Source: an uncultured SAR86 cluster bacterium (lineage in GTDB: Bacteria; Pseudomonadota; Gammaproteobacteria; Magnimaribacterales; TMED112). Taken from it: a DNA stretch of 64,000 nucleotides. Made by a program: the position numbers and the translations under genes. The notes beneath the pieces were generated by a model. That model was given only the letters and a program-made list of their open reading frames with translations, searched no databases and was not told the origin of the DNA. Shown piece by piece: positions 33,383-46,659 of the stretch. The stretch's first letter is position 1, and each line of letters begins with the position of its first letter. The stretch lies in contig CACATF010000001.1 in NCBI GenBank assembly GCA_902535365.1, positions 248,765-312,764 of the forward strand, in the 5' to 3' direction.

Positions 33383-34327
33383 ATGAGAATTTTTGTTACA
33401 GGTTCTTCAGGTTTCATTGGTTTTCATTTAGTTAAAAAGTTACTAAATGATGGTCATAGTGTTGTTGGGATAGATGATCACAACGACTATTACAATCCAG
33501 CGTTAAAATTCAAAAGACTTTCTCTTCTAAATTCAAATAACTTTACATTTTATGAAACTGACATAAAAAGCCTCAATATAAAGGAATCTAATTTTGATTT
33601 AGCAATTAATTTAGCCGCCCAAGCCGGGGTTAGAGCACCACAAGAAAAACAACACCTATACAAACATTCAAATATTGATGGTTTTAAATCCTTTTGTAAT
33701 TTTTGCAAAAAAAATAATATAAAAAAGATCTTATATGCATCCAGCAGTTCAGTATATTCAGAGATTAAAGAAGGGAAATTTTGTGAGGCAACAACTCCAC
33801 TCAAACCTAAATCAAAATATGGTGAATCAAAACTTTCAAATGAAATTTATGCCTCTAATTTTATTAAATCATACGATGCATCAATCATAGGTCTAAGGTT
33901 TTTTTCTGTTTATGGGCCATTTGGTAGACCTGACATGGCGTATTATGCTTTTTCCAAAGCAATAAAAGACAAAGAAATAATTAATCTTAATAATAACGGC
34001 AACATGTACAGAGATATGACTTTCATAGATGATATTATTGACGGAATATTTGGAGCAATTGATTACGTTTATAGTGTTCAAAATAAAAATGAAATCTTTA
34101 ATTTAGGCAATGACAAACCAATTAAGACAAGTGACTTATTGAATAGAATTGAACAAATAATTGGCAAAAAAGCTTTAATTAAGCCTAATAAGACAGAAAA
34201 CGAAGCATTTAAAACGCACGCTGATATTACTAAAGCAAAAAATTTATTAGGATATGACCCTAAAGTTTGTTTTGATGTAGGTATTGAAAGGTTTCTAGAT
34301 TGGCATAGGCATTATGAGAATATATAA
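33383..34327 (+). CDS. NAD-dependent epimerase (UDP-glucuronate 4-epimerase-like)
   Basis: VTGSSGFIGFH, NLAAQAGVR, YASSSSVY, YGESK, RFFSVYGPFGRPDMAY; start corrected to ATG 33383 after the tRNA. Confidence 0.9.
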   Translation: MRIFVTGSSGFIGFHLVKKLLNDGHSVVGIDDHNDYYNPALKFKRLSLLNSNNFTFYETDIKSLNIKESNFDLAINLAAQAGVRAPQEKQHLYKHSNIDGFKSFCNFCKKNNIKKILYASSSSVYSEIKEGKFCEATTPLKPKSKYGESKLSNEIYASNFIKSYDASIIGLRFFSVYGPFGRPDMAYYAFSKAIKDKEIINLNNNGNMYRDMTFIDDIIDGIFGAIDYVYSVQNKNEIFNLGNDKPIKTSDLLNRIEQIIGKKALIKPNKTENEAFKTHADITKAKNLLGYDPKVCFDVGIERFLDWHRHYENI

Positions 34328-35177
34328 AAAATTAAAATTAGGAATAGTTGGCCATGGTTTTGTAGGGAAGGCTACAGATTGGGGATTTAATAAACGAATA
34401 AGTAAATTTATTGTGGATCCTTTGCTAGATACTAGTGTTAGTGATTTAAAAGATTTTGAACCAGAAATAGTATTTATATGTGTGCCAACACCCATGGGCG
34501 CTGATGGCAGTCAAGATTCATCAATTATTGAAAAGGTAATTAGAGAACTGATCCTGTATTGTCCAAATGCTATCAAGGTTGTAAAAAGCACAGTTTTGCC
34601 GTCTCTTCTAGGTAAGTTGCATAAATTAGATTCAAAACTAATTTATAACCCAGAATTTTTAAGAGAAAAACATGCGAACATCGATTTTATAAACTCTGAT
34701 ATGATTATTTTTGGTGGTGACAGAAATATTTCATCGCAAGTTTCAAATGCATACTTAAGACACTCAAGATGTAAAACAAAAGAGCATATTTTTACTGATC
34801 TTAAGACAGCATCTCTGATTAAGTATTCCATCAATACTTTCTTAGCTTCAAAGGTGATATTTTTTAATGAGCTACATTCAATTTATGAAAAACTTGATGT
34901 AAAAGATAGTTGGGAATCAGTTGTTAATATAATTTCTCGTGATAATAGAGTAGGTGATAGTCATATGGATGTCCCTGGTCATGATGGTAGGAAAGGTTTT
35001 GGTGGTGCATGTTTCCCAAAAGATAGCTTAGCTTTAATTAAATTTGCTGAAAGCATGAATGTTGATTTAAATTCATTAATAGCGACTGTAAAGATAAATA
35101 ATAAAATTAGATCAGAATATGAGGAATTAGATTCAAGAGAATCAGAGCAAAATGTATCATTCGATGATAAAATTTGA
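34314..35177 (+). CDS. UDP-glucose/GDP-mannose dehydrogenase family protein (short, no C-terminal domain)
   Basis: GIVGHGFVG, CVPTP, KSTVLP, NPEFLRE, GFGGACFPKD; 287 aa. Confidence 0.88.
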   Translation: MRIYKKLKLGIVGHGFVGKATDWGFNKRISKFIVDPLLDTSVSDLKDFEPEIVFICVPTPMGADGSQDSSIIEKVIRELILYCPNAIKVVKSTVLPSLLGKLHKLDSKLIYNPEFLREKHANIDFINSDMIIFGGDRNISSQVSNAYLRHSRCKTKEHIFTDLKTASLIKYSINTFLASKVIFFNELHSIYEKLDVKDSWESVVNIISRDNRVGDSHMDVPGHDGRKGFGGACFPKDSLALIKFAESMNVDLNSLIATVKINNKIRSEYEELDSRESEQNVSFDDKI

Positions 35178-35758: not shown

Positions 35759-36952
35759 ATGAATGTTAGTTTCAAGTTAAAGTGCTTCATAATCAAAATC
35801 CTTAGTAATTCAGAAAGCATTGAGGATATAAGTTCATTCTCCAAACAAGAAATTAAAGACTTAATTAAAATCATTGTATTCAACAGGCTGGAAAGCTATT
35901 TTTATAATTATCTGAGTATTACTGAGGCTTGTAAAAATTCAATCTTAATAAAAAAAGAAATAAAAAAACCCCTTTTCAAAAGAAATATATGTACATTTAA
36001 AACCCTTGGTGCATCTATAGGTATTTATAAACAGCTTAATAATGAAGGTATCAATTTTAGAATATTGAAGGGAGCATATTTGATAAATAAATTTAATTTA
36101 AAGCACAGGCAAATTAGAGATTTAGATATCTTGGTTGATCCTTCAGATTTAGAGCAAACAATTTCTTGTGCAAAAAAAGCTGGGTATTATTTTTATGAAA
36201 AACAATCAAAGGATGAATACCTTGATTTAGACCATAGGTATGCTTTACCTATGATGATTGATAAAGAAAACAACATTTTGGAAATTCACCATAGAATTAC
36301 AGATCCTAAGATATTTCAAAAATGCAGCATTTCTGAACTAATTATGAAGGATCGAGAATGCCTTAGATTTAAAGATTATGAAATTCAGCATTCATCAATA
36401 GAGGCAAATTTTTGTCATATTCTATACCATGGCATCGGTAAGCAATTTATGGATTGCGGACCACAGTTTATAAATGATTTGATTCTACTATCTGGAGGCA
36501 TCAATGATGGCGGTAAAAAACTTCAAAAGTTCATTCATCATGCAAAATTAGAAAAAGAGTTTTCATTGTTTGGTGCAATCTTGCAAAGATTTTCTGGATT
36601 AAAAATGGATTTGTATATGTCTCAATCAAATGTGCCAAAGCAAATCCTTGATGATGCCGCAAGTTTACTTATTTATAACGACTATAATCATAAAATGCTT
36701 GACTTATTTTTAAATAGATCAAACAAAGGCATCATTTTTCAAACTGCTCAAAAAATTTTCTCCAAATCATCAACCCAATCTCGTTATATGGTTAAATTAG
36801 ATAAAAGAAATTATTTTAGCTTTACAATCAAAAGGGTATTAGAACAAATAAAACACTATTCAATACCTTTTTTAAGATTATTTATGATGAATTTAACAAC
36901 CAACAAAATAAAAAAATATTCTCTAATTAAACATTTTTTAAATAATGATTGA
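35759..36952 (+). CDS. Nucleotidyltransferase family protein (NTP_transf_5 type, lasso-cluster associated)
   Basis: ILKGAYL...R.IRDLDILV...LEIH pattern of the uncharacterised nucleotidyltransferase family. Confidence 0.8.
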   Translation: MNVSFKLKCFIIKILSNSESIEDISSFSKQEIKDLIKIIVFNRLESYFYNYLSITEACKNSILIKKEIKKPLFKRNICTFKTLGASIGIYKQLNNEGINFRILKGAYLINKFNLKHRQIRDLDILVDPSDLEQTISCAKKAGYYFYEKQSKDEYLDLDHRYALPMMIDKENNILEIHHRITDPKIFQKCSISELIMKDRECLRFKDYEIQHSSIEANFCHILYHGIGKQFMDCGPQFINDLILLSGGINDGGKKLQKFIHHAKLEKEFSLFGAILQRFSGLKMDLYMSQSNVPKQILDDAASLLIYNDYNHKMLDLFLNRSNKGIIFQTAQKIFSKSSTQSRYMVKLDKRNYFSFTIKRVLEQIKHYSIPFLRLFMMNLTTNKIKKYSLIKHFLNND

Positions 36953-37595
36953 ACTAGTTAATGTAAAAAAAAGTTTTGTAGATTTTAAGCTAAAAAATAT
37001 TCTCATTGCACCAAAACAAAGAACCATACTTTCAAATATCAGTATAAAAATTGAAAACAATAAAGCTTATATTTTGCAAGGTAAAAATGGATCTGGCAAA
37101 ACCACTCTTCTCAAATTAATAGCTGGTTTATTAAAGCCTGATGATGGAACTATTGAAACAGATAAAGATTATATATCTTCATATGTTTCTACTTCTGAAC
37201 GTAGTTTTTTTTGGAGATTAACAGTTCTTGAAAACTTAATTTTTTTTAACAACCTAAATAAAAATGAAAACGTACAAAAAGAAATTATTTATGAACATTT
37301 AAACAAATATGGGTTGTCAAAATATTCAAATATTGAATTTATGAAATTGTCATCTGGCCAAAAAAGAAAAGTTTCAATCATAAGAGCATTGCTAAAAGAT
37401 CCAGATTTATATTTATTTGATGAAGTCTCAAATTCGCTCGATAAAGAATCAAAAGAAGACCTTATGCAATTTGTTAATGAAGCTTTAATTATTAATCAAA
37501 AGAAAACAATAATTTGGGCCACACACGACTCCCAAGAAGAAAAAATAATTAATGGTGAAATTATCAAAATAAAGAAGGGATTTATACAACAATGA
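36945..37595 (+). CDS. ABC transporter ATP-binding protein
   Basis: Walker A GKNGSGKTT, signature LSSGQKRK, Walker B LYLFDE, ERSFFWRLTV.ENL.FF. Confidence 0.93.
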   Translation: MIELVNVKKSFVDFKLKNILIAPKQRTILSNISIKIENNKAYILQGKNGSGKTTLLKLIAGLLKPDDGTIETDKDYISSYVSTSERSFFWRLTVLENLIFFNNLNKNENVQKEIIYEHLNKYGLSKYSNIEFMKLSSGQKRKVSIIRALLKDPDLYLFDEVSNSLDKESKEDLMQFVNEALIINQKKTIIWATHDSQEEKIINGEIIKIKKGFIQQ

Positions 37596-38428
37596 AGCTA
37601 GATATTAAAAGAGAGACAAATGAGTTATTTGCATTTCTTAAAAAAGACATGCTTATTTCAATAAGTTATAAAGCAAATATATTAAATTTTATTATATTTA
37701 GTATTTTTATAATAAGTTTTATTTCTTTTTTTTCATCGGGTATTGAAACCTTGATTCCTTTTGAAACTTCAAACCAAAAAATAAGTATTTTTGGTTTCTT
37801 CTTAAGTGGAGCAATTATAGTTGAAACCTCACTCAGGTTAGTGAGCAGCATGACAGCTACAGTCCGTTTTTATCAAATGAGTGGAATAGTGGAAGAAATA
37901 TTTTCTGAGAAAGATAGAAATGTGAGAAGAATCATTTATTCATCAACTTATAGTTCTTTGATAGCTCTCTCAAGAGTTATTTTTTATCTTTTGCTTGCAA
38001 TTTTTATTGAAAAAGAGCTTTTTTCAAGTTTGGATCTTTACTCTTTATTAGCTAGCTGCTTATTTATAGTTGTTACATATTTTGGGCTAACTGGTATAGG
38101 CCTTATTGCTTGTAGTTATACAATATTATTCAAGCAAGGTAATTTAGTAATAACTATGTTCTTGATCGTCTCATTATTCTTTTCAAATAGTTTTTTTCTT
38201 GTTGATCAACTCCCGCCACAAATACAATTTGTTAGATACTTAAGCCCAATTTCATACCTACTTGATTATTTTAGAGATATAGATAAATTTGTTAGTATTC
38301 CGGCTAATTTCAATGAAATATTTTTTCAAATCTTATTCATGAATATGATTTATTTTATTTTTGGAGTTATTAGTGTTAAAAAGGCAATTAATATTGCAAA
38401 AGTAAGAGGCAACTTAATTTTTTATTAA
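37592..38428 (+). CDS. ABC-2 type exporter permease
   Basis: About six TM segments, LP...Q....LSPISY..D..R C-terminal ABC-2 pattern; overlaps the ATPase gene. Confidence 0.8.
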   Translation: MKLDIKRETNELFAFLKKDMLISISYKANILNFIIFSIFIISFISFFSSGIETLIPFETSNQKISIFGFFLSGAIIVETSLRLVSSMTATVRFYQMSGIVEEIFSEKDRNVRRIIYSSTYSSLIALSRVIFYLLLAIFIEKELFSSLDLYSLLASCLFIVVTYFGLTGIGLIACSYTILFKQGNLVITMFLIVSLFFSNSFFLVDQLPPQIQFVRYLSPISYLLDYFRDIDKFVSIPANFNEIFFQILFMNMIYFIFGVISVKKAINIAKVRGNLIFY

Positions 38429-38434
38429 TACATT

Positions 38435-38695
38435 ATGAAATATAAAATATCTCCACAAATATTAATGACCAGTATGGATGGTGAGTCTATTATTTTAAAT
38501 CGAGATACTGGGCAATATATAGCGCTAAATATTACAGCATCAACAATTTTTGAATGTATAAATGATGGCGTATCTGAGACCGCGTTATTAGAAAAATTAA
38601 AAAAAATATTTAAAGTTTCTAATAGCGATATCGAACAAGATACAAAAAACTTCCTAAAAGAATGTATCGAAAAAAAGATAGTATTTGTTGAATGA
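38435..38695 (+). CDS. PqqD-family RiPP recognition element (lasso B1)
   Basis: 86 aa: DGESIILN..TGQY.ALN.TA..IFE......L...L...F.V.......D...FL; adjacent to B2 and C genes. Confidence 0.9.
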   Translation: MKYKISPQILMTSMDGESIILNRDTGQYIALNITASTIFECINDGVSETALLEKLKKIFKVSNSDIEQDTKNFLKECIEKKIVFVE

Positions 38696-39069
38696 ATGTA
38701 TTTTTAATTAAAATACAAATTTTTTTATATATTATTCTTACATCAATTTTTTTACGCATTCTCAGTTACCAACAATTAAATAAATTTATCAAAGGAAGTC
38801 CTTTTTTTATGAGTAGATCCAACCTATGTCAAAATGAATACTCAAAAATAGTTGAAAGACTTTCAAAAAAAATTAATGTAAACAAATGCTTTGTTAAGAG
38901 CATTGTTCTTTTTAAAGCACTAAAAAAAAATGGTTTTTGTCCACGTCTTATTGTTGGTGGCAGGTTTGTTGATTCAATTTACCATTCGCACTCATGGGTT
39001 GAACTGAAAGAGCAAAACTTGATATATCAAAACAAAGATGATTTTAAAGAAGTAATCAGATATACATGA
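38692..39069 (+). CDS. Lasso peptide leader peptidase B2 (transglutaminase-like)
   Basis: KCFVKSIVL (catalytic Cys), L.VG and HSHSWVE (HAWVE-type His motif); 125 aa. Confidence 0.9.
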   Translation: MNVFLIKIQIFLYIILTSIFLRILSYQQLNKFIKGSPFFMSRSNLCQNEYSKIVERLSKKINVNKCFVKSIVLFKALKKNGFCPRLIVGGRFVDSIYHSHSWVELKEQNLIYQNKDDFKEVIRYT

Positions 39070-40988
39070 ACACCTTTTTCTTACATAGATCAAAAAATAG
39101 CCATCCGAATAAAGAAAGTTTTGATATTGAGCAGAAAAAAATCTTTGCTTATAGGGAGTATGATGAATTCTTCTCGTTTACACACAAAAAAACTTATGCA
39201 TCATCATTTAAAAATTTAACAAAGAATAATGACAAAAAAAGATCAATTAATCAGATCTATAAGAGTGAAAATCTCATAGTTTTTTGCGATGCAGTTATAG
39301 AAAATTTAGATTTTATACTTGAACTTTTAAAGATTGATAAGTTGCTATCAAATGAAGAAATCTTTTTTTTGTTGTATAAAAAATATGACCAAGATTTTAT
39401 AAAATATATTAAGGGTTCGTTTAATTTTCTAATAGCTGATCTCAAAAAAGATGAATATATTTTTGGGTCTGACAGGTTTTGCACTAAACCATTATTTTTC
39501 TCAGTTCAAAATAATAATTTTTTTATTTCAACAGAAATTAAATCTTTCAAAAACCTAAGTATTTTTAATAAGTCACTTAATTATAAGACACTCTACAACC
39601 AGCTAGTGGTATCATTTCAAAAGCCAGGGGAAACCTATTTCAAAGATATTTCTAAAGTTGAAAAAGCAACAGTATATGTATATAAAGATGGATTATTAAA
39701 TTCAAAAAAATACTACAAGCTTTCCTCCTTGGGAAAAACACAATTACCCTACAAGCAAACAATTGATAAAACTAGGGAATTATTTTTAAAAAGTGTCAAA
39801 GCAAATTGTTACAGCAATACAAATGTAATTTCATCTATCACTAGTGGTGGCCTAGACTCATCGTCAATTACTGCTGCGTTATCTTATATTGACAGCAAAG
39901 AAATTAATTCTTATTCGGTAAACTTCTCAGGCATTAGTAAGGAGGACTTTTTAAAAAGTGATGAAAGAAAATACATAAATGAAATAGCAAAATTTAAAAA
40001 TGTATATCATGAATTTTGTATTGCACATGAGGATGGTCCTTTTAGCTTTCAAGAGAGATTTGATCATGATCTTGACCAGCCACTTTTAAACGGCAATTAT
40101 TTTTTTACAGATTATATTTACCCTAAGGTCCGCCAAAATGGTGGAAGAATATTACTTGAAGGAATAGATGGAGACACTGTCCTCTCATATGGATTTGGTC
40201 ATTTGATCGAATTGGGTAGAAGATTAGAATTTTTTTCGGCATTCAAAAATTATCAAAAACTTTGCAAAGGAAGAAAAAGAAAGCCTACTGTATATGACTT
40301 TTTAAAAAGCATAATTATAAAGCCAAATTTGCCTAGAAATGTAAATCAATTTCTAAGAAAAATTTTTGGGAAAGATACTTGGGAAGAAAGAAACCTTAAA
40401 AGGCTAAAAAAATCATATCATCCAAAAAATTTACAATCATTAATTGACCATACATATGGTTATAAAAGAGGAATATTTATAAATTCTCAACAAAATCATT
40501 TAAACGAGATTAATTCAAATATATGGGAATATATATTTTCATTCTCGTATGAAATTGCATGCTCATATGGTATTGAAGTAAGATTACCTTATTTCAATCA
40601 AGATTTAATTGAGCTTTCATTATCCCTTCCTTCAAATCTAAAATTTTCAGATGGTGTTGATAGGTATATTTTTAGAGAAGCGATGAAAGGTATTGTGCCT
40701 TTAAGTATTTTGAAAAAAACATCGAAGGCAGATTTAAGCTCATTAGGCAGAAATGATTTAAGAAAACATTCTAAAACCCTAATGAATTATTTTTCGAGCA
40801 ACTCTTATAAATTATATGGTGTAGTAGATAAAATATATATTGATAAATGCCTAAAATTTTTAACAAATGACAAGAATGGACATTTATATACATCTGTTTT
40901 GGCAGATCTTTATGCAATTGAAAAGTGGCTTTCCAAAGAGGGTTTTGATATTGATATAGAAGAATTTTCAAAGTGCTCAAAAATATGA
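39066..40988 (+). CDS. Lasso peptide cyclase C (asparagine synthetase-like)
   Basis: DRF..KPLF, SGGLDSS, G.DGD, EVRLPYF..DLIE, RYIFREAMKGIVP; no N-terminal Cys of a glutaminase-active AsnB; flanked by B1, B2 and precursor. Confidence 0.9.
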   Translation: MNTFFLHRSKNSHPNKESFDIEQKKIFAYREYDEFFSFTHKKTYASSFKNLTKNNDKKRSINQIYKSENLIVFCDAVIENLDFILELLKIDKLLSNEEIFFLLYKKYDQDFIKYIKGSFNFLIADLKKDEYIFGSDRFCTKPLFFSVQNNNFFISTEIKSFKNLSIFNKSLNYKTLYNQLVVSFQKPGETYFKDISKVEKATVYVYKDGLLNSKKYYKLSSLGKTQLPYKQTIDKTRELFLKSVKANCYSNTNVISSITSGGLDSSSITAALSYIDSKEINSYSVNFSGISKEDFLKSDERKYINEIAKFKNVYHEFCIAHEDGPFSFQERFDHDLDQPLLNGNYFFTDYIYPKVRQNGGRILLEGIDGDTVLSYGFGHLIELGRRLEFFSAFKNYQKLCKGRKRKPTVYDFLKSIIIKPNLPRNVNQFLRKIFGKDTWEERNLKRLKKSYHPKNLQSLIDHTYGYKRGIFINSQQNHLNEINSNIWEYIFSFSYEIACSYGIEVRLPYFNQDLIELSLSLPSNLKFSDGVDRYIFREAMKGIVPLSILKKTSKADLSSLGRNDLRKHSKTLMNYFSSNSYKLYGVVDKIYIDKCLKFLTNDKNGHLYTSVLADLYAIEKWLSKEGFDIDIEEFSKCSKI

Positions 40989-41031: not shown

Positions 41032-41172
41032 ATGAAATGGGAAAAACCAGAAATTAGTTATTTAGGAAGTCTGCAAGAGCTCACAAACATGCCATCTGGC
41101 GAGGGCGACACAAAAGACTTCGGATTCAATGATGGAGAAGTATTTTCAGGTAATCCTATTGGTTCAACATAA
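41032..41172 (+). CDS. Lasso peptide precursor A (46 aa), not in ORF track
   Basis: MKWEKPEISYLGSLQELTN-MPSGEGDTKDFGFNDGEVFSGNPIGST: WxxP RRE-binding motif, LG, Thr at -2, Gly/Asp-rich core; fills the gap between cyclase and kinase. Confidence 0.9.
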   Translation: MKWEKPEISYLGSLQELTNMPSGEGDTKDFGFNDGEVFSGNPIGST

Positions 41173-42060
41173 TTGCTAAACCATCATTATAGGCACCTCG
41201 GTTTAAAAATAACCTCAGATTCAAAGCTTCTTTTTCTTGAAGAAGGCAATCATTGTAGTTCAGGTGCTCAAATCATCATATTAAATAAGGAAAATCTTAA
41301 AAGTAAAAGAAAAAACAATACATCTACGTGGGTATTCACTGCAAATCACAAAAAGATAGAAATTTACAAGAAGGGCATATGCTTTATAGAAATAATTAAT
41401 GGCAGGGAGATCCACTACAAAAAATTAGGCAAATTTAATAATATTGATTTTTCTAAATTTATAGCAAATTTAGTTTTTGGCTATCTTCTTTTTCAAAGAA
41501 AAGAAATTGTACTGCATGCATCATGTGTTTCTAAAAATGGAAAAGCAATATTATTTTGTGGTCCTAGTGGAAGTGGAAAGTCAACTTTGGCTGCCCAACT
41601 TTTGTCAAAATTCAGTTTTATGTCTGAAGACTTATCATATTTAATAAAAAAGAAGAACCAAATTTATGTATCATCTTCTATCCCGTTCATAAAATTGGAC
41701 CCTAAAATCTCTAGCTTCATAGAATGTCAAAATAAGTATATTTTGCAGAGCGATCAGTATAAAAGAGATTTTTGTGAAGTTTCTAGCCATCATTCAAAAA
41801 ATACTGCAGAAGTAAATAAAATTATTTTCTTAAAATGGGGAACAAAAGACAAATTTTATAAACCGTCAATTAAGGAAGCTTTAATACTCTTCATTAATAA
41901 TACATTTAAAAAAATTCCCTATTCCCCAAGTTCTGAACATTCCATAAAAATATTTCACTTCTTCAAAAAACTGAATGAATCATCTGAACTTTATGTTCTA
42001 ATGCGAAAAAAGGAAGAAAAAATAGCAAATGGAAATGATTTTTTTGATACAATGATTTAA
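41173..42060 (+). CDS. HPr-kinase-like protein (putative lasso peptide kinase)
   Basis: VLHASCV..NGKAILFCGPSGSGKSTLA......FMSED; TTG directly after the precursor stop. Confidence 0.85.
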   Translation: MLNHHYRHLGLKITSDSKLLFLEEGNHCSSGAQIIILNKENLKSKRKNNTSTWVFTANHKKIEIYKKGICFIEIINGREIHYKKLGKFNNIDFSKFIANLVFGYLLFQRKEIVLHASCVSKNGKAILFCGPSGSGKSTLAAQLLSKFSFMSEDLSYLIKKKNQIYVSSSIPFIKLDPKISSFIECQNKYILQSDQYKRDFCEVSSHHSKNTAEVNKIIFLKWGTKDKFYKPSIKEALILFINNTFKKIPYSPSSEHSIKIFHFFKKLNESSELYVLMRKKEEKIANGNDFFDTMI

Positions 42061-45414: not shown

Positions 45415-46659
45415 GTGAATATTGGAGTTGTTGGATTAGGTTATGTAGGCATTGTGTCTTTAGCTTGTTTGTCAAAAATGGGGTTTAAGGTAACAGGAAT
45501 TGATACTGATCAAAAAAAAGTTGATGCATTGAAAAATGGATGCTCGTATATTTATGAACCAGGGGTAGATAAGCTAATTAAAGATGGATTAAAAAAGGGC
45601 AAAATTTTTTCATCAAATAAAATTAATAGTTCGATAAATGATTTAGATTTATTCTTAGTTTGTGTTGGCACGCCAAGCAAAGCAGATGGCTCCCATGATT
45701 ACTCTTACATTGAAAATGTAACAAAAGAAATTGCAATTTGCTCCAAAAAACTCAAACATAAAAAAGTTACAGTTGCGTTTCGATCAACATTTCAACCAGG
45801 TACGATTGATAAAGTAATATTGCCAATTCTTGATAAGTATAAGGCCACAAATGTTGATGTTGTTTATAATCCAGAATTTTTAAGGGAATCCACTGCGATT
45901 GATGATTTTTTTATGCCCTCCAGGATTGTTGTAGGAACATCTGATGGTTCAGCATCAAAACATATGAATCAAATATATAAATCATTTGATGCAAAAATAT
46001 TTCTTACAAAATTCAAGGAAGCAGAAATAACTAAACTTATTGATAACACTTGGCATGCGCTTAAAGTTTCATTTATGAATGAAATTGCTCGAATCTCAGA
46101 AACCAATGAAATTAATATATCCAAGATATATGATATTTTTGTTGCAGATAATATTTTGAATATTTCAAAACATTATTTGAGGCCTGGAGGTCCGTTTGGG
46201 GGCTCTTGTTTGCCAAAAGATCTCAGGGCATTAGAGTCTCTTTCAAAGCTTCATAAATTAAATAACCCAATTATAGAAAACATATCTTTATCAAATGCCA
46301 ACCATCAGGAATATTTAGTGAATAAAATTTTACATAGAACTGGTAAAAATAAAAAAATACTTTTTTGCGGTGTTACGTTCAAAAGAAATACTGATGATCT
46401 CAGAGAAAGCCCATGGTTATCAATTGCTAACGTTCTAAAAGAACAAAATTTAGACTTTGATATTTATGATTCATATTATTCATCGAATAAAACCAACAAA
46501 GAAAAAAATACTTTTCTCGGTCCAATAAGTGAGAATATCGTATCTATTAATGATGTAAGAAACTCAAAATATGATCTTTACATAAATGCAAACAACTCAA
46601 TTGTTGATCTGGGCTTAAAATCAACAAATACTGTATTAGATCTTAATAGATTAGATTAA
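45415..46659 (+). CDS. Nucleotide-sugar dehydrogenase (GDP-mannose/UDP-glucose 6-dehydrogenase family)
   Basis: GLGYVG, CVGTPS, YNPEFLRE, FGGSCLPKD, FK.NTDDLRESP. Confidence 0.92.
   Translation: MNIGVVGLGYVGIVSLACLSKMGFKVTGIDTDQKKVDALKNGCSYIYEPGVDKLIKDGLKKGKIFSSNKINSSINDLDLFLVCVGTPSKADGSHDYSYIENVTKEIAICSKKLKHKKVTVAFRSTFQPGTIDKVILPILDKYKATNVDVVYNPEFLRESTAIDDFFMPSRIVVGTSDGSASKHMNQIYKSFDAKIFLTKFKEAEITKLIDNTWHALKVSFMNEIARISETNEINISKIYDIFVADNILNISKHYLRPGGPFGGSCLPKDLRALESLSKLHKLNNPIIENISLSNANHQEYLVNKILHRTGKNKKILFCGVTFKRNTDDLRESPWLSIANVLKEQNLDFDIYDSYYSSNKTNKEKNTFLGPISENIVSINDVRNSKYDLYINANNSIVDLGLKSTNTVLDLNRLD

What the first reader, a model, noticed from the sequence alone, without database searches (positions are those of the whole stretch)
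41032..41172. Uncalled 46-aa lasso precursor with an atypical core (Met1, candidate Met1-Asp7 ring, acidic, C-terminal Ser-Thr)
Seen: MKWEKPEISYLGSLQELTN|MPSGEGDTKDFGFNDGEVFSGNPIGST. The leader has WxxP, LG and Thr(-2). The Thr(-2) rule gives a 27-residue core starting with Met. Established: most characterised cores start with Gly/Ala/Ser/Cys and close rings of 7-9 residues. Inference: the only acceptor in that range is Asp7 (Glu5 and Asp10 fall outside), giving a 7-residue ring with Pro2 and a long 20-residue loop/tail; Phe11, Phe13 and Phe19 are possible plugs. Five acidic residues against one Lys argue against a typical cationic antibiotic. Cyclisation at Asp10 would be an oversized ring.
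Basis: partly seen in the sequence, partly recalled or inferred. Interest (0 to 1): 0.85.

Follow-up and report, generated by a model that had tools for sequence, protein, structure and literature searches.

The report
Real lasso precursor, ring reassigned
This small gene is a genuine precursor of a phosphorylated lasso-type peptide in a tiny marine bacterium, but its relatives point to a different ring-closing aspartate than first proposed and hint at an unusual way of closing the ring.

Summary
The 46-aa ORF at 41032-41172 (+) is there exactly as quoted. It lies between a lasso cyclase homologue (C) and an HPr-kinase-like gene (K). Upstream are a PF14907 nucleotidyltransferase, ABC exporter genes, a PqqD RRE (B1) and a B2 protease.

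The same layout, with a small leader-bearing ORF between C and K, recurs in 12 relatives' loci. The peptide family has 104 representative clusters. It is a real precursor of the paeninodin/pseudomycoidin/Bsf kind.

The proposed Met1-Asp7 ring is not supported.

In 44 of 44 representatives without Lys at D-6/-7, the invariant Asp is at core position 9. All 46 with it at 11-18, the window included, have that Lys.

My reading: a small ring closed at Asp34 on the K28-x-x-G31-x-x-D34 module, with MPSGEG outside the ring. Closure through the Lys28 side chain is possible but untested.

The parts
35759..36952 (+). N: PF14907 nucleotidyltransferase (PsmN/BsfN-like tailoring enzyme)
   Evidence: Pfam NTP_transf_5, E 2.9e-20, 73.3 bits against a cut-off of 31.2. 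Found by tblastn in 12 of 12 related loci. No PDB relative by sequence.
36945..38428 (+). D: ABC exporter, ATPase (36945-37595) and ABC-2 permease (37592-38428)
   Evidence: Pfam ABC_tran E 1.6e-25 and ABC2_membrane E 4.8e-9. ATPase found in 10 of 12 related loci.
38435..38695 (+). B1: PqqD-type RiPP recognition element
   Evidence: Pfam PqqD E 1.1e-11, 45.3 bits against a cut-off of 23.4. NCBIfam lasso_PqqD_Bac 42.1 bits, below its cut-off of 80. Complex prediction with the precursor gave weak support only: score 0.41 against best control 0.00.
38692..39069 (+). B2: transglutaminase-like leader peptidase
   Evidence: Pfam Transglut_core3 23.5 bits, below the cut-off of 26. NCBIfam lasso_biosyn_B2 27 bits, below 33. 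The Cys motif ([KS]C[FL].[KR]S) and the His motif (H[SA]W) are conserved in the window and 5 relatives.
39066..40988 (+). C: Asn-synthetase-like macrolactam synthetase (lasso cyclase)
   Evidence: Pfam Asn_synthase E 6e-30. The best NCBIfam hit is NF033535, lasso isopeptide cyclase, E 1.7e-69, 235 bits, below the cut-off of 525. In a tree of 12 cyclases it groups with the cyclases of the Lys-type precursors (97/94 support).
41032..41172 (+). A: 46-aa precursor (stop included)
   Evidence: Family membership.
41032..41088 (+). Leader, residues 1-19 (W3, P6, I8, G12, T18 = -17, -14, -12, -8, -2)
   Evidence: Read from the sequence. Spacing rule from PMC10368454. An HMM built from the 84 Lys-free short-type sequences aligns exactly residues 3-19.
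41089..41112 (+). Residues 20-27 (MPSGEGDT): variable spacer or stub between the canonical cleavage site and the conserved module
   Evidence: BLASTP against P0139 opens a 6-residue gap at MPSGEG. This segment is 2-10 residues long within the subfamily.
41113..41133 (+). Conserved module K28-D-F-G31-F-N-D34, with the proposed ring-closing Asp34
   Evidence: K28, D34 and G35 are invariant and G31 nearly so in the subfamily. Asp occupies the invariant column in 192 of 199 unique family sequences, and the window's Asp34 is in that column. A leave-one-out HMM aligns K28, G31 and D34 to the K, G and D states.
41134..41169 (+). Tail GEVFSGNPIGST, with Ser45 (41164-41166) as the likely kinase site
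   Evidence: The tail is homologous to ...DGvtFnGnPIGeS[STGN] of the relatives. Ser or Thr occurs in the last three residues of 85 of 94 representatives.
41173..42060 (+). K: HPr-kinase/PEPCK-fold P-loop kinase, with a TTG start directly after the stop of A
   Evidence: NCBIfam HprK_rel_A E 5.8e-9, 35.5 bits, below the cut-off of 200. H115, G130, G135, K136, S137, E152 and D153 are invariant in 9 homologues. The AF2 model has pLDDT 82.6. Foldseek top hits are PEPCK (E 3.5e-8) and HPr kinases 1knx and 3tqf. TTG at 41173 is the only start codon in the first 80 codons.

Best explanation
The ORF encodes the precursor (A) of a kinase- and nucleotidyltransferase-tailored lasso-family RiPP, in the gene order N-D-D-B1-B2-C-A-K.

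Shown here: gene content, synteny, family conservation and the canonical leader spacing.

Inferred pathway:
1. B1 binds the WEKPEI leader.
2. K phosphorylates a near-C-terminal hydroxyl, most likely the conserved penultimate Ser45. N may then add a sugar or nucleotide to that phosphate, as reported for pseudomycoidin.
3. B2 removes the leader at the canonical site after Asn19.
4. C adenylates the family-invariant Asp34, not Asp26 or Asp29, and closes a small ring on the conserved K28-x-x-G31-x-x-D34 module.
5. The variable segment MPSGEG(DT) therefore lies outside the ring.

Two sub-variants remain open:
(a) Closure by the Lys28 side-chain amine after canonical cleavage. This leaves an N-terminal stub and gives a ring of 26 atoms, the same as a Gly1-Glu8 lasso ring. 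I put this at about 0.30.
(b) A second or displaced cleavage that exposes Asp26 (9-residue ring) or Lys28 (7-residue ring) as the new N-terminus. I put this at about 0.33.

The product is probably exported by the ABC pump. Its target is unknown. It is acidic, and the characterised relatives paeninodin and pseudomycoidin showed no antibacterial activity in the tests reported.
For: Cluster identity.

Synteny: by tblastn at E<=1e-3, C, K and N are found in 12 of 12 related loci, and an A-like ORF lies between C and K in 12 of 12.

Family size: 205 proteins at E<=10 among 470 candidates, and 104 representatives at E<=0.001.

Asp34 as the homologous acceptor:
- Invariant in the 13-sequence alignment and in the 10-sequence subfamily alignment, together with K28 and G35.
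- It falls in the column that is Asp in 192 of 199 unique family sequences.
- BLASTP against the short relative P0139 gaps out MPSGEG and aligns D34 with that peptide's only possible acceptor, D9.
- An HMM built without the window aligns K28, G31 and D34 to the conserved K, G and D states.
- The resulting 12-residue tail fits the family mode: tails of 9-13 residues in 167 of 192 sequences.

Dichotomy among the 94 of 104 representatives that could be placed:
- 44 of 44 representatives without Lys at D-6/-7 have the invariant Asp at core position 9.
- 46 of 46 with the Asp at 11-18 have that Lys.
- No representative has the Asp at position 10.
- Only 26 of these 46 have any Asp or Glu at positions 7-9.
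- 8 of the 46 have no acidic residue at all before the invariant Asp.
So a canonical ring of 7-9 residues from the canonical N-terminus cannot be the general rule for this type.

The cyclases of the Lys-type and Lys-free loci separate on one branch with 97/94 support (6 against 6).

Canonical cleavage is favoured for two reasons. I/V/T at -2 is kept in the long types as well. PMC10368454 reports that the RRE helps form the pocket for the -2 residue.
Against: - No chemistry was observed. Everything about the ring is inferred from conservation.
- For the window taken alone, the canonical reading gives a legitimate 7-residue ring (Met20-Asp26).
- The first 9-sequence alignment put Asp26 in the invariant column.
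- No lasso cyclase is known to use a Lys side chain. My searches listed none, but they cover open-access papers only.
- No conserved residues precede the module that could mark a second cleavage site.
- Lys is also conserved at position 3 in the short EAK... forms, where the alpha-amine is available. The Lys may therefore serve another role.
- The Lys-type appears to be one lineage, so 46 of 46 is not 46 independent events.
- B2, K and C all score below the curated NCBIfam cut-offs.
Confidence: 0.62

Rival explanations
1. Canonical cleavage after Asn19, then a 7-residue Met20-Asp26 ring with a 20-residue loop and tail plugged by Phe residues. Asp34 and Lys28 would be conserved for another reason, such as target binding.
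For: - The canonical leader spacing and Thr(-2) put Met20 at core position 1 (rule).
- Asp26 is the only acid at positions 7-9.
- 26 of the 46 long-type representatives have an acid at positions 7-9.
- Gly-rich N-termini such as GGNEGSD and GLGAGKE look like lasso rings.
- The alignment supports Asp26.
Against: - Asp26 aligns with residue 1 of the short relatives.
- The closest relative, P0199, has this Asp at position 6 and the next Asp at position 9. The two peptides would then use non-homologous acceptors.
- The two most populous long types I examined have the equivalent Asp at position 6.
- 8 representatives have no acid before the invariant Asp.
- A 20-residue tail is an outlier.
Confidence: 0.15
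2. Canonical cleavage, then head-to-side-chain closure of Met20 onto the invariant Asp34. This gives a 15-residue macrolactam that is probably not threaded. Ring size would vary from 9 to 18 across the family.
For: - It uses canonical cleavage and the invariant Asp.
- Gly is strongly preferred at core position 1 in the long types: 89 of 104 sequences and 31 of 50 Lys-type representatives. That would suit a nucleophile.
Against: - It does not explain the universal Lys at a fixed distance from the Asp.
- It does not explain the absence of 10-residue forms.
- Ring size would vary from 9 to 17 within one closely related subfamily.
- Known lasso rings are 7-9 residues.
Confidence: 0.1
3. Canonical cleavage with an oversized 10-residue Met20-Asp29 ring.
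For: In P0199 the homologous Asp is at position 9 after a canonical T(-2) and Ala1.
Against: The position is F, Y, V or G in 6 of the 9 other subfamily members, and F or W in 33 of the 37 short EAK-type cores.
Confidence: 0.04
4. A chance ORF or a decayed, non-functional precursor.
For: - No RNA holder was listed.
- No promoter or terminator signal stands out above shuffles: 38 promoter-like sites against 45.8 expected, and 0 terminators.
Against: - Syntenic conservation in 12 of 12 loci.
- 104 representative clusters.
- Identical peptide in a second strain whose upstream sequence differs.
- All seven neighbouring biosynthetic ORFs are open.
Confidence: 0.03

Closest known systems
Paeninodin (pade cluster, Paenibacillus dendritiformis) and ThcoA/SyanA: C-terminally (poly)phosphorylated lasso peptides
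   Same: C-A-K adjacency, split B1/B2 and an ABC exporter. An HPr-kinase homologue acts on the precursor before leader removal. The core is acidic. (Passages of PMC8498205; PMC6993621; PMC9266682.)
   Different: - The known kinases need Ser as the very last residue. Here Ser is penultimate and Thr is last.
- The known rings run from Ala1 to an inner Asp. Here the invariant Asp is 15 residues from the canonical cleavage site.
- The host is a Gammaproteobacterium of about 1 Mb, not a Firmicute.
Pseudomycoidin (psm cluster, Bacillus pseudomycoides)
   Same: It has both the kinase and a nucleotidyltransferase-like gene (PsmN), which adds hexose to the phospho-Ser. The bulky C-terminal modification is proposed to hold the thread in place.
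   Different: - Gene order differs: N lies between B2 and D there, but at the 5' end here.
- The ring is canonical.
- Homology of the window's PF14907 protein to PsmN itself was not tested.
BsfA/Bsf cluster (Bradymonas sediminis; PMC10368454)
   Same: A marine proteobacterial cluster with A, B1, B2, C, D, K and N. Most of the present family has Ile or Val at -2, as BsfA does: 72 of 94 representatives. BsfK phosphorylates Ser3 of the core, and the window's canonical core also has Ser3.
   Different: - The window itself has Thr(-2).
- BsfA is predicted to form a Gly1-Asp8 ring and ends in Asp.
- No mature Bsf lasso peptide has been observed either.
Omega-amide RiPPs made by ATP-grasp ligases (microviridin type). 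Chemistry analogue only, recalled and not taken from any call.
   Same: Side-chain Lys to Asp/Glu isopeptide macrocycles.
   Different: The enzyme family is unrelated. Here the only candidate ligase is an Asn-synthetase-type lasso cyclase.

Membership tests
Lasso peptide biosynthetic cluster | Asn-synthetase-like ATP-dependent macrolactam synthetase (C) | tested here: met
   Pfam Asn_synthase at 105.5 bits, above the cut-off of 21. The best NCBIfam model is the lasso cyclase NF033535, E 1.7e-69, but its 235 bits are below the curated cut-off of 525.
Lasso peptide biosynthetic cluster | PqqD-type RRE (B1) | tested here: met
   Pfam PqqD at 45.3 bits, above the cut-off of 23.4. B1-precursor complex score 0.41 against best control 0.00, which is weak support. 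That mark was reached by 58 of 80 solved complexes and 2 of 110 mismatched pairs. The runs agree in at least 84% of contacts and the partner's pLDDT is at least 51. The result may reflect likeness to solved RRE-leader complexes.
Lasso peptide biosynthetic cluster | Transglutaminase-like Cys protease (B2) with catalytic Cys and His | tested here: inconclusive
   Scores are just below the cut-offs: Pfam 23.5 against 26, and NF033537 27 against 33. The Cys and His motifs are conserved in 6 of 6 homologues aligned by eye.
Lasso peptide biosynthetic cluster | Precursor leader with Y(-17)xxP(-14)xL(-12) and Thr(-2) | tested here: met
   W3, P6, I8 and T18 have exactly this spacing (rule from passages of PMC10368454).
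Lasso peptide biosynthetic cluster | Ring-forming Asp/Glu at core position 7-9 counted from the leader cleavage site | tested here: inconclusive
   Asp26 is at position 7, but the family-invariant Asp is at position 15. Only 26 of 46 long-type representatives have any acid at positions 7-9.
Lasso peptide biosynthetic cluster | Threaded lariat topology | not testable with these tools
   Needs MS/MS, carboxypeptidase or thermal tests, or NMR.
C-terminally phosphorylated lasso peptides (paeninodin/pseudomycoidin type) | HPr-kinase homologue encoded next to the precursor | tested here: met
   TIGR04352 E 5.8e-9. A profile of the kinase hits PDB HPr kinases at E about 1e-3. The AF2 model matches PEPCK and HPr-kinase folds.
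C-terminally phosphorylated lasso peptides (paeninodin/pseudomycoidin type) | Conserved His-Lys-Asp-Asp catalytic motif of lasso kinases (PMC9266682; PMC10368454) | tested here: inconclusive
   H115, K136 and S137 are invariant. The acidic pair is Glu152-Asp153 rather than Asp-Asp in all 9 homologues.
C-terminally phosphorylated lasso peptides (paeninodin/pseudomycoidin type) | Ser as the last residue of the precursor | tested here: not met
   The window ends ...G-S-T. In the family the last residue is Ser in 44 of 94 representatives and Thr in 8 of 94. Ser or Thr occurs in the last three residues in 85 of 94.
C-terminally phosphorylated lasso peptides (paeninodin/pseudomycoidin type) | Nucleotidyltransferase-like tailoring gene (PsmN type) | tested here: inconclusive
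   A PF14907 protein is present. Its homology to PsmN itself could not be tested because that sequence is not held.
Bsf-type ring-phosphorylated lasso peptides | Ile/Val(-2), Gly1-Asp8 ring, Ser/Thr3 as phospho-site | tested here: not met
   The window has Thr(-2), Met1 and no acid at position 8. Only Ser3 matches (one search compared).

The most novel reading that the evidence does not exclude
In the Lys-type half of this marine family, the window included, the lasso cyclase closes the ring through the side-chain amine of the conserved Lys (Lys28) onto the invariant Asp (Asp34), not through the new N-terminus.

The ring would have 26 atoms when Lys is at D-6 and 29 atoms when Lys is at D-7. 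That is within the range of canonical lasso rings (8-mer closed on Glu = 26 atoms, 9-mer closed on Asp = 28).

An N-terminal stub of free length (2-11 residues) would remain, so the peptide would have two tails. This would be a new topology and a new nucleophile for lasso cyclases.
Probability: 0.3. Interest if true: 0.88.

Novelty: new variant of a known kind. Interest (0 to 1): 0.68.

Why it matters
1. A complete tailored lasso cluster sits in a streamlined marine gammaproteobacterial genome of about 1 Mb. It lies inside a low-G+C cell-surface polysaccharide island. Such genomes are usually thought to carry almost no secondary metabolism.

2. The precursor belongs to a large marine family: 104 clusters at 50% identity, many from ocean metagenomes. 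It matches no Pfam or NCBIfam precursor model, and I found no paper describing it.

3. About half of that family breaks the textbook lasso rule of a ring acid 7-9 residues from the cleavage site, and it does so in a regular way. A Lys lies at a fixed distance from the invariant Asp, and the segment before it is free in length.

4. That regularity gives a sharp and cheap test of whether lasso cyclases can use a side-chain amine or tolerate displaced cleavage. Either result would widen genome-mining rules such as position-1 and ring-size filters, and would bear on lasso engineering.

5. Core position 1 is Asn or Asp in 26 of the 44 short-type representatives. To my recollection these are not among the first residues of characterised lasso peptides.

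Tried and rejected
- **Expression.** The look-up of sequencing runs: no RNA holder listed. Two metatranscriptome runs of the same sample held next to none of the words. I did not lay reads.
- **Promoter and terminator scan.** 38 promoter-like sites against 45.8 expected from shuffles, and 0 terminators. Uninformative.
- **The search for related loci with alignments A2, A4 and A5.** I used the genome search with the profile, a single protein and a degenerate DNA pattern instead.
- 10 loci with distant kinase relatives (Glaciecola, Alteromonas and others). My motif scan found no family-type precursor in them.
- 16 pattern matches. None is a precursor. The Salegentibacter match lies inside a 481-aa gene on the other strand.
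- **B1 covariation.** I looked for a B1 residue that covaries with Thr or Ile at -2. The candidate Tyr (GxY[IF]xLN) is present in 5 of 6 relatives' B1 regardless of the -2 residue, so there is no signal.
- **Entropy of spacer against module.** Spacers are about as variable as leaders (0.51-0.57 bits) in two types and invariant in a third. This does not decide between the models.
- **Sequence search of N against the PDB.** Nothing meaningful.
- **B1-precursor complex.** Weak support only. No contacts were given, so the scissile bond could not be read.
- **Papers.** PMC4919450 (paeninodin, JBC) and PMC5391289 (RODEO) are not held. The supplements of PMC10368454 (precursor alignments S2 and S3) could not be seen. 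They may already show some of these precursor types.
Full report
**Observation.** The window holds ATG at 41032 and TAA at 41170-41172. The next ORF (41173-42060) starts with TTG directly after that stop, and TTG is the only start codon in its first 80 codons. The two genes are therefore probably translationally coupled.

**Context.** The plus-strand ORFs form one block:
- 35759-36952: PF14907 nucleotidyltransferase (73.3 bits).
- 36945-37595 and 37592-38428: ABC ATPase and ABC-2 permease.
- 38435-38695: PqqD (45.3 bits).
- 38692-39069: transglutaminase-like. Pfam 23.5 bits is below the cut-off of 26, and NF033537 lasso B2 at 27 bits is below 33.
- 39066-40988: Asn synthase. The best NCBIfam model is the lasso isopeptide cyclase NF033535, E 1.7e-69, 235 bits, below its cut-off of 525.
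- The 46-aa ORF.
- 41173-42060: a P-loop protein whose best model is HprK-related kinase A (E 5.8e-9, 35.5 bits, cut-off 200).

Support for the kinase:
- H115, G130, G135, K136, S137, E152 and D153 are invariant in nine homologues.
- Its AF2 model (pLDDT 82.6) matches PEPCK and HPr-kinase structures (E 3.5e-8 to 1.3e-6).
- The profile reaches PDB HPr kinases only weakly, at E about 1e-3.

For B2, the Cys and His motifs are conserved in the window and five relatives.

This is the gene set of the phosphorylated lasso clusters pade, psm and bsf. It includes the C-A-K adjacency (PMC6993621 sections read; PMC10368454 sections; passages of PMC8498205 and PMC9266682).

**Host.**
- The genome has 927,839 bases in 16 contigs and is 86.6% complete.
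- The best named GyrA relative is 'Gamma proteobacterium SCGC AAA168-P09' at 62% identity. I recall that record as a SAR86 single-cell genome. That label comes from no call.
- The cluster lies in a stretch of 26-31% G+C (34-56 kb) against about 36% in the flanks.
- That stretch also carries Wzz/Wza, glycosyltransferase, heparinase-II/III-like and YjbH genes.

**Is the ORF real?**
- A cyclase search in 41 relatives' genomes matched 17 (Asn-synthase paralogues included).
- In eight of the loci a small ORF with a W/YxxPx[IV]xxLG leader follows the cyclase.
- tblastn with the window's proteins at E<=1e-3 found the following in those eight loci: C, K and N in 8 of 8, the ABC ATPase in 7, the permease in 6, B2 in 5 and B1 in 4. 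Weaker B1 matches appear in two more.
- A kinase profile matched 8 of 30 genomes of the family and 14 of 266 of the order.
- Four of the new loci again carry the precursor next to K, with C and N alongside.
- The exact peptide alone found only itself and a 58-aa form from another strain. That form is identical over the 46 residues but differs upstream.
- A 13-sequence profile found 205 proteins at E<=10 among 470 candidates.
- In the word-free search it found 104 representative clusters at E<=0.001, of which 9 are at E<=1e-10. Many come from ocean metagenomes.
- Pfam and NCBIfam have no model that hits the peptide.
- B1-precursor co-folding gave weak support: score 0.41 against best control 0.00. 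That mark was reached by 58 of 80 solved complexes and 2 of 110 mismatched pairs. The runs agree in at least 84% of contacts and the partner's pLDDT is at least 51. RRE-leader complexes have been solved, so this may reflect likeness only.

[quoted passage not shown] It also reports that the RRE helps form the pocket for the -2 residue. The window has W3, P6, I8, G12 and T18, which are positions -17, -14, -12, -8 and -2 if cleavage follows Asn19. An HMM built from the 84 Lys-free short-type sequences aligns exactly residues 3-19. Across 94 representatives the -2 residue is Ile in 59, Thr in 22 and Val in 13.

**Ring.** I took all 225 family proteins held at that point.
- 8 failed my leader regex and were dropped.
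- The rest reduced to 199 unique leader-to-end sequences, which I aligned with MAFFT.
- One column is Asp in 192 of the 199. The other 7 look truncated, frameshifted or divergent.

The window's residue in that column is Asp34, core position 15. Other evidence gives the same placement:
- The 13-sequence alignment: invariant P6, G31, D34.
- The 10-sequence subfamily alignment: invariant W3, P6, G12, K28, D34, G35.
- BLASTP against P0139, which gaps out exactly MPSGEG (E 6e-8).
- An HMM built without the window.

Against this, the first 9-sequence alignment put Asp26 in the invariant column.

Other points on the candidate acceptors:
- Asp29 is not conserved.
- In the abundant short relatives (EAKF.GFSDGvtF.G.PIGeS., 37 of 56 unique subfamily cores) the residue aligned with Asp26 is the first residue after the canonical site. 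The only acid at positions 7-9 in those peptides is the one aligned with Asp34.
- The closest relative, P0199 (56% identity), has the three Asp residues one position earlier (6, 9, 14). A 7-residue ring in the window would therefore have no counterpart there.

**Family-wide pattern.** Of the 104 representatives, 94 could be placed and 10 could not (truncated, or the leader regex failed).
- All 44 representatives without Lys at D-6/-7 have the invariant Asp at core position 9.
- Their first residue is Asn (16), Asp (10), Ala (9), Ser (5) or Gly (4).
- The Asn1 and Asp1 forms include sequences with a canonical Thr(-2), such as P0217, P0218 and P0180.
- All 46 representatives with the Asp at positions 11-18 have Lys at D-6 or D-7.
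- Four more (the EAK group) have both Asp at position 9 and Lys at position 3.
- None has the Asp at position 10.
- Only 26 of the 46 have any acid at positions 7-9.
- Eight have no acid before the invariant Asp.
- In the redundant set the counts are 104 of 104 long sequences with the Lys against 4 of 88 short ones.
- Within the window's own subfamily the segment before the Lys is 2, 4, 5, 6, 7, 8 or 10 residues long, while the Lys-to-Asp distance is constant and the tail clearly homologous.
- The cyclases of six Lys-type and six Lys-free loci separate on one branch with 97/94 support. The Lys-type is therefore probably one lineage, and these counts are not independent events.
- That tree does not follow genome taxonomy, which suggests exchange between families of the order.

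**Interpretation.** A ring of 7-9 residues counted from the canonical N-terminus cannot be the rule for the Lys-type. I conclude, with confidence about 0.6, that the acid used is Asp34. The ring is then built on the K28-x-x-G31-x-x-D34 module, and MPSGEG lies outside it. How the amine is supplied is open.

- Canonical cleavage is favoured because the -3 to -1 residues are conserved alike in short and long types.
- After canonical cleavage, the Lys side chain is the simplest nucleophile at a fixed distance.
- By my count such a ring has 3m+5 atoms for m residues spanned: 26 or 29. Canonical Asp-closed rings have 3n+1 atoms and Glu-closed rings 3n+2. A Lys-closed ring would therefore match an 8-mer closed on Glu or fall just above a 9-mer closed on Asp.
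- This would explain the Lys, the free stub length and the missing 10-residue class. I put it at 0.30.
- It has no precedent. Two searches of the open literature listed none.
- The alternative is a displaced or second cleavage exposing Asp26 or Lys28, at 0.33.
- In favour of that alternative, the residue eight before the invariant Asp is usually Asp, Gly, Ala, Ser, Asn or Glu (62 of 104 long sequences). That is the same set as position 1 of the short types.
- Against it, no conserved residues precede that site.

**Tailoring (inferred).**
- The subfamily ends in ...IG(x)S followed by 0-1 residue.
- By my reading, 10 of the 56 unique cores end in Ser-Thr like the window.
- Ser or Thr lies in the last three residues of 85 of 94 representatives, but Ser is the last residue in only 44.
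- Known lasso kinases act on the terminal Ser, or on Ser3 in Bsf.
- I therefore propose Ser45 as the site, with Thr46 or core Ser3 (Ser22) as alternatives.
- The PF14907 protein may then add a sugar or nucleotide, as PsmN does.
- The kinase's acidic pair is Glu-Asp rather than the reported Asp-Asp (one search compared).

**Novelty.** Searches for lasso peptides together with SAR86, with HPr kinase and with marine Gammaproteobacteria, kinase and nucleotidyltransferase listed no description of this family. The searches cover open-access papers and bioRxiv only. I could not read the paeninodin JBC paper, the RODEO paper or any supplements. The cluster type is known. The host, the size of the marine family, the Asn1/Asp1 cores and above all the Lys-type architecture are new to my knowledge.

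Noticed in passing
window 34000-56000: A low-G+C island (0.265-0.316 against about 0.36 in the flanks). It holds the lasso cluster together with capsule/EPS genes: Wzz-type tyrosine kinase, Wza, UDP-glucose dehydrogenase, group-1 glycosyltransferase, heparinase II/III-like and YjbH. The relative's locus L028 also has Wza/Wzz next to N-K-C.
   Followed up: partly
loci L022-L029, L152-L154 (cyclase tree): The cyclase phylogeny does not follow genome taxonomy. For example, L028 (family f2) pairs with L027 (f1), and L152/L154 (f3) pair with L029 (f1). Within one genus the cyclases are only 23-29% identical to the window's. This suggests exchange of whole clusters between lineages.
   Followed up: partly
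window 34314-35177: A 287-aa ORF matches only positions 76-299 of the 413-position nucleotide-sugar dehydrogenase model. A full-length UDP-glucose dehydrogenase lies at 45415-46659. It may be a truncated copy at the island's edge.
   Followed up: no
proteins P0098, P0101, P0119, P0031, P0254, P0267: Some family members carry 15-40 extra hydrophobic residues after the normal C-terminus. These may come from stop-codon loss or assembly errors. If real, the C-terminal Ser would no longer be terminal.
   Followed up: no
protein P0208: One 81-aa ORF contains two leader motifs in tandem (…FAKPRVTDLGD… and …FVKPRVRDIGD…). It is either a fused double precursor or two genes read through.
   Followed up: no
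proteins P0148, P0226, P0276, P0179, P0180, P0203, P0215: Several cores carry two Cys, one before or inside the conserved module and one in the tail, as in GVCDxK...DGC. This suggests disulfide-bridged variants. In the GVC forms the first Cys lies in the 'spacer', which would argue that the spacer stays in the mature product.
   Followed up: no
window 41170-41175: The stop codon of the precursor (TAA) is directly followed by the TTG start of the kinase gene. Relatives show the same arrangement with TTG, GVG-type or ATG starts within 0-3 codons.
   Followed up: partly
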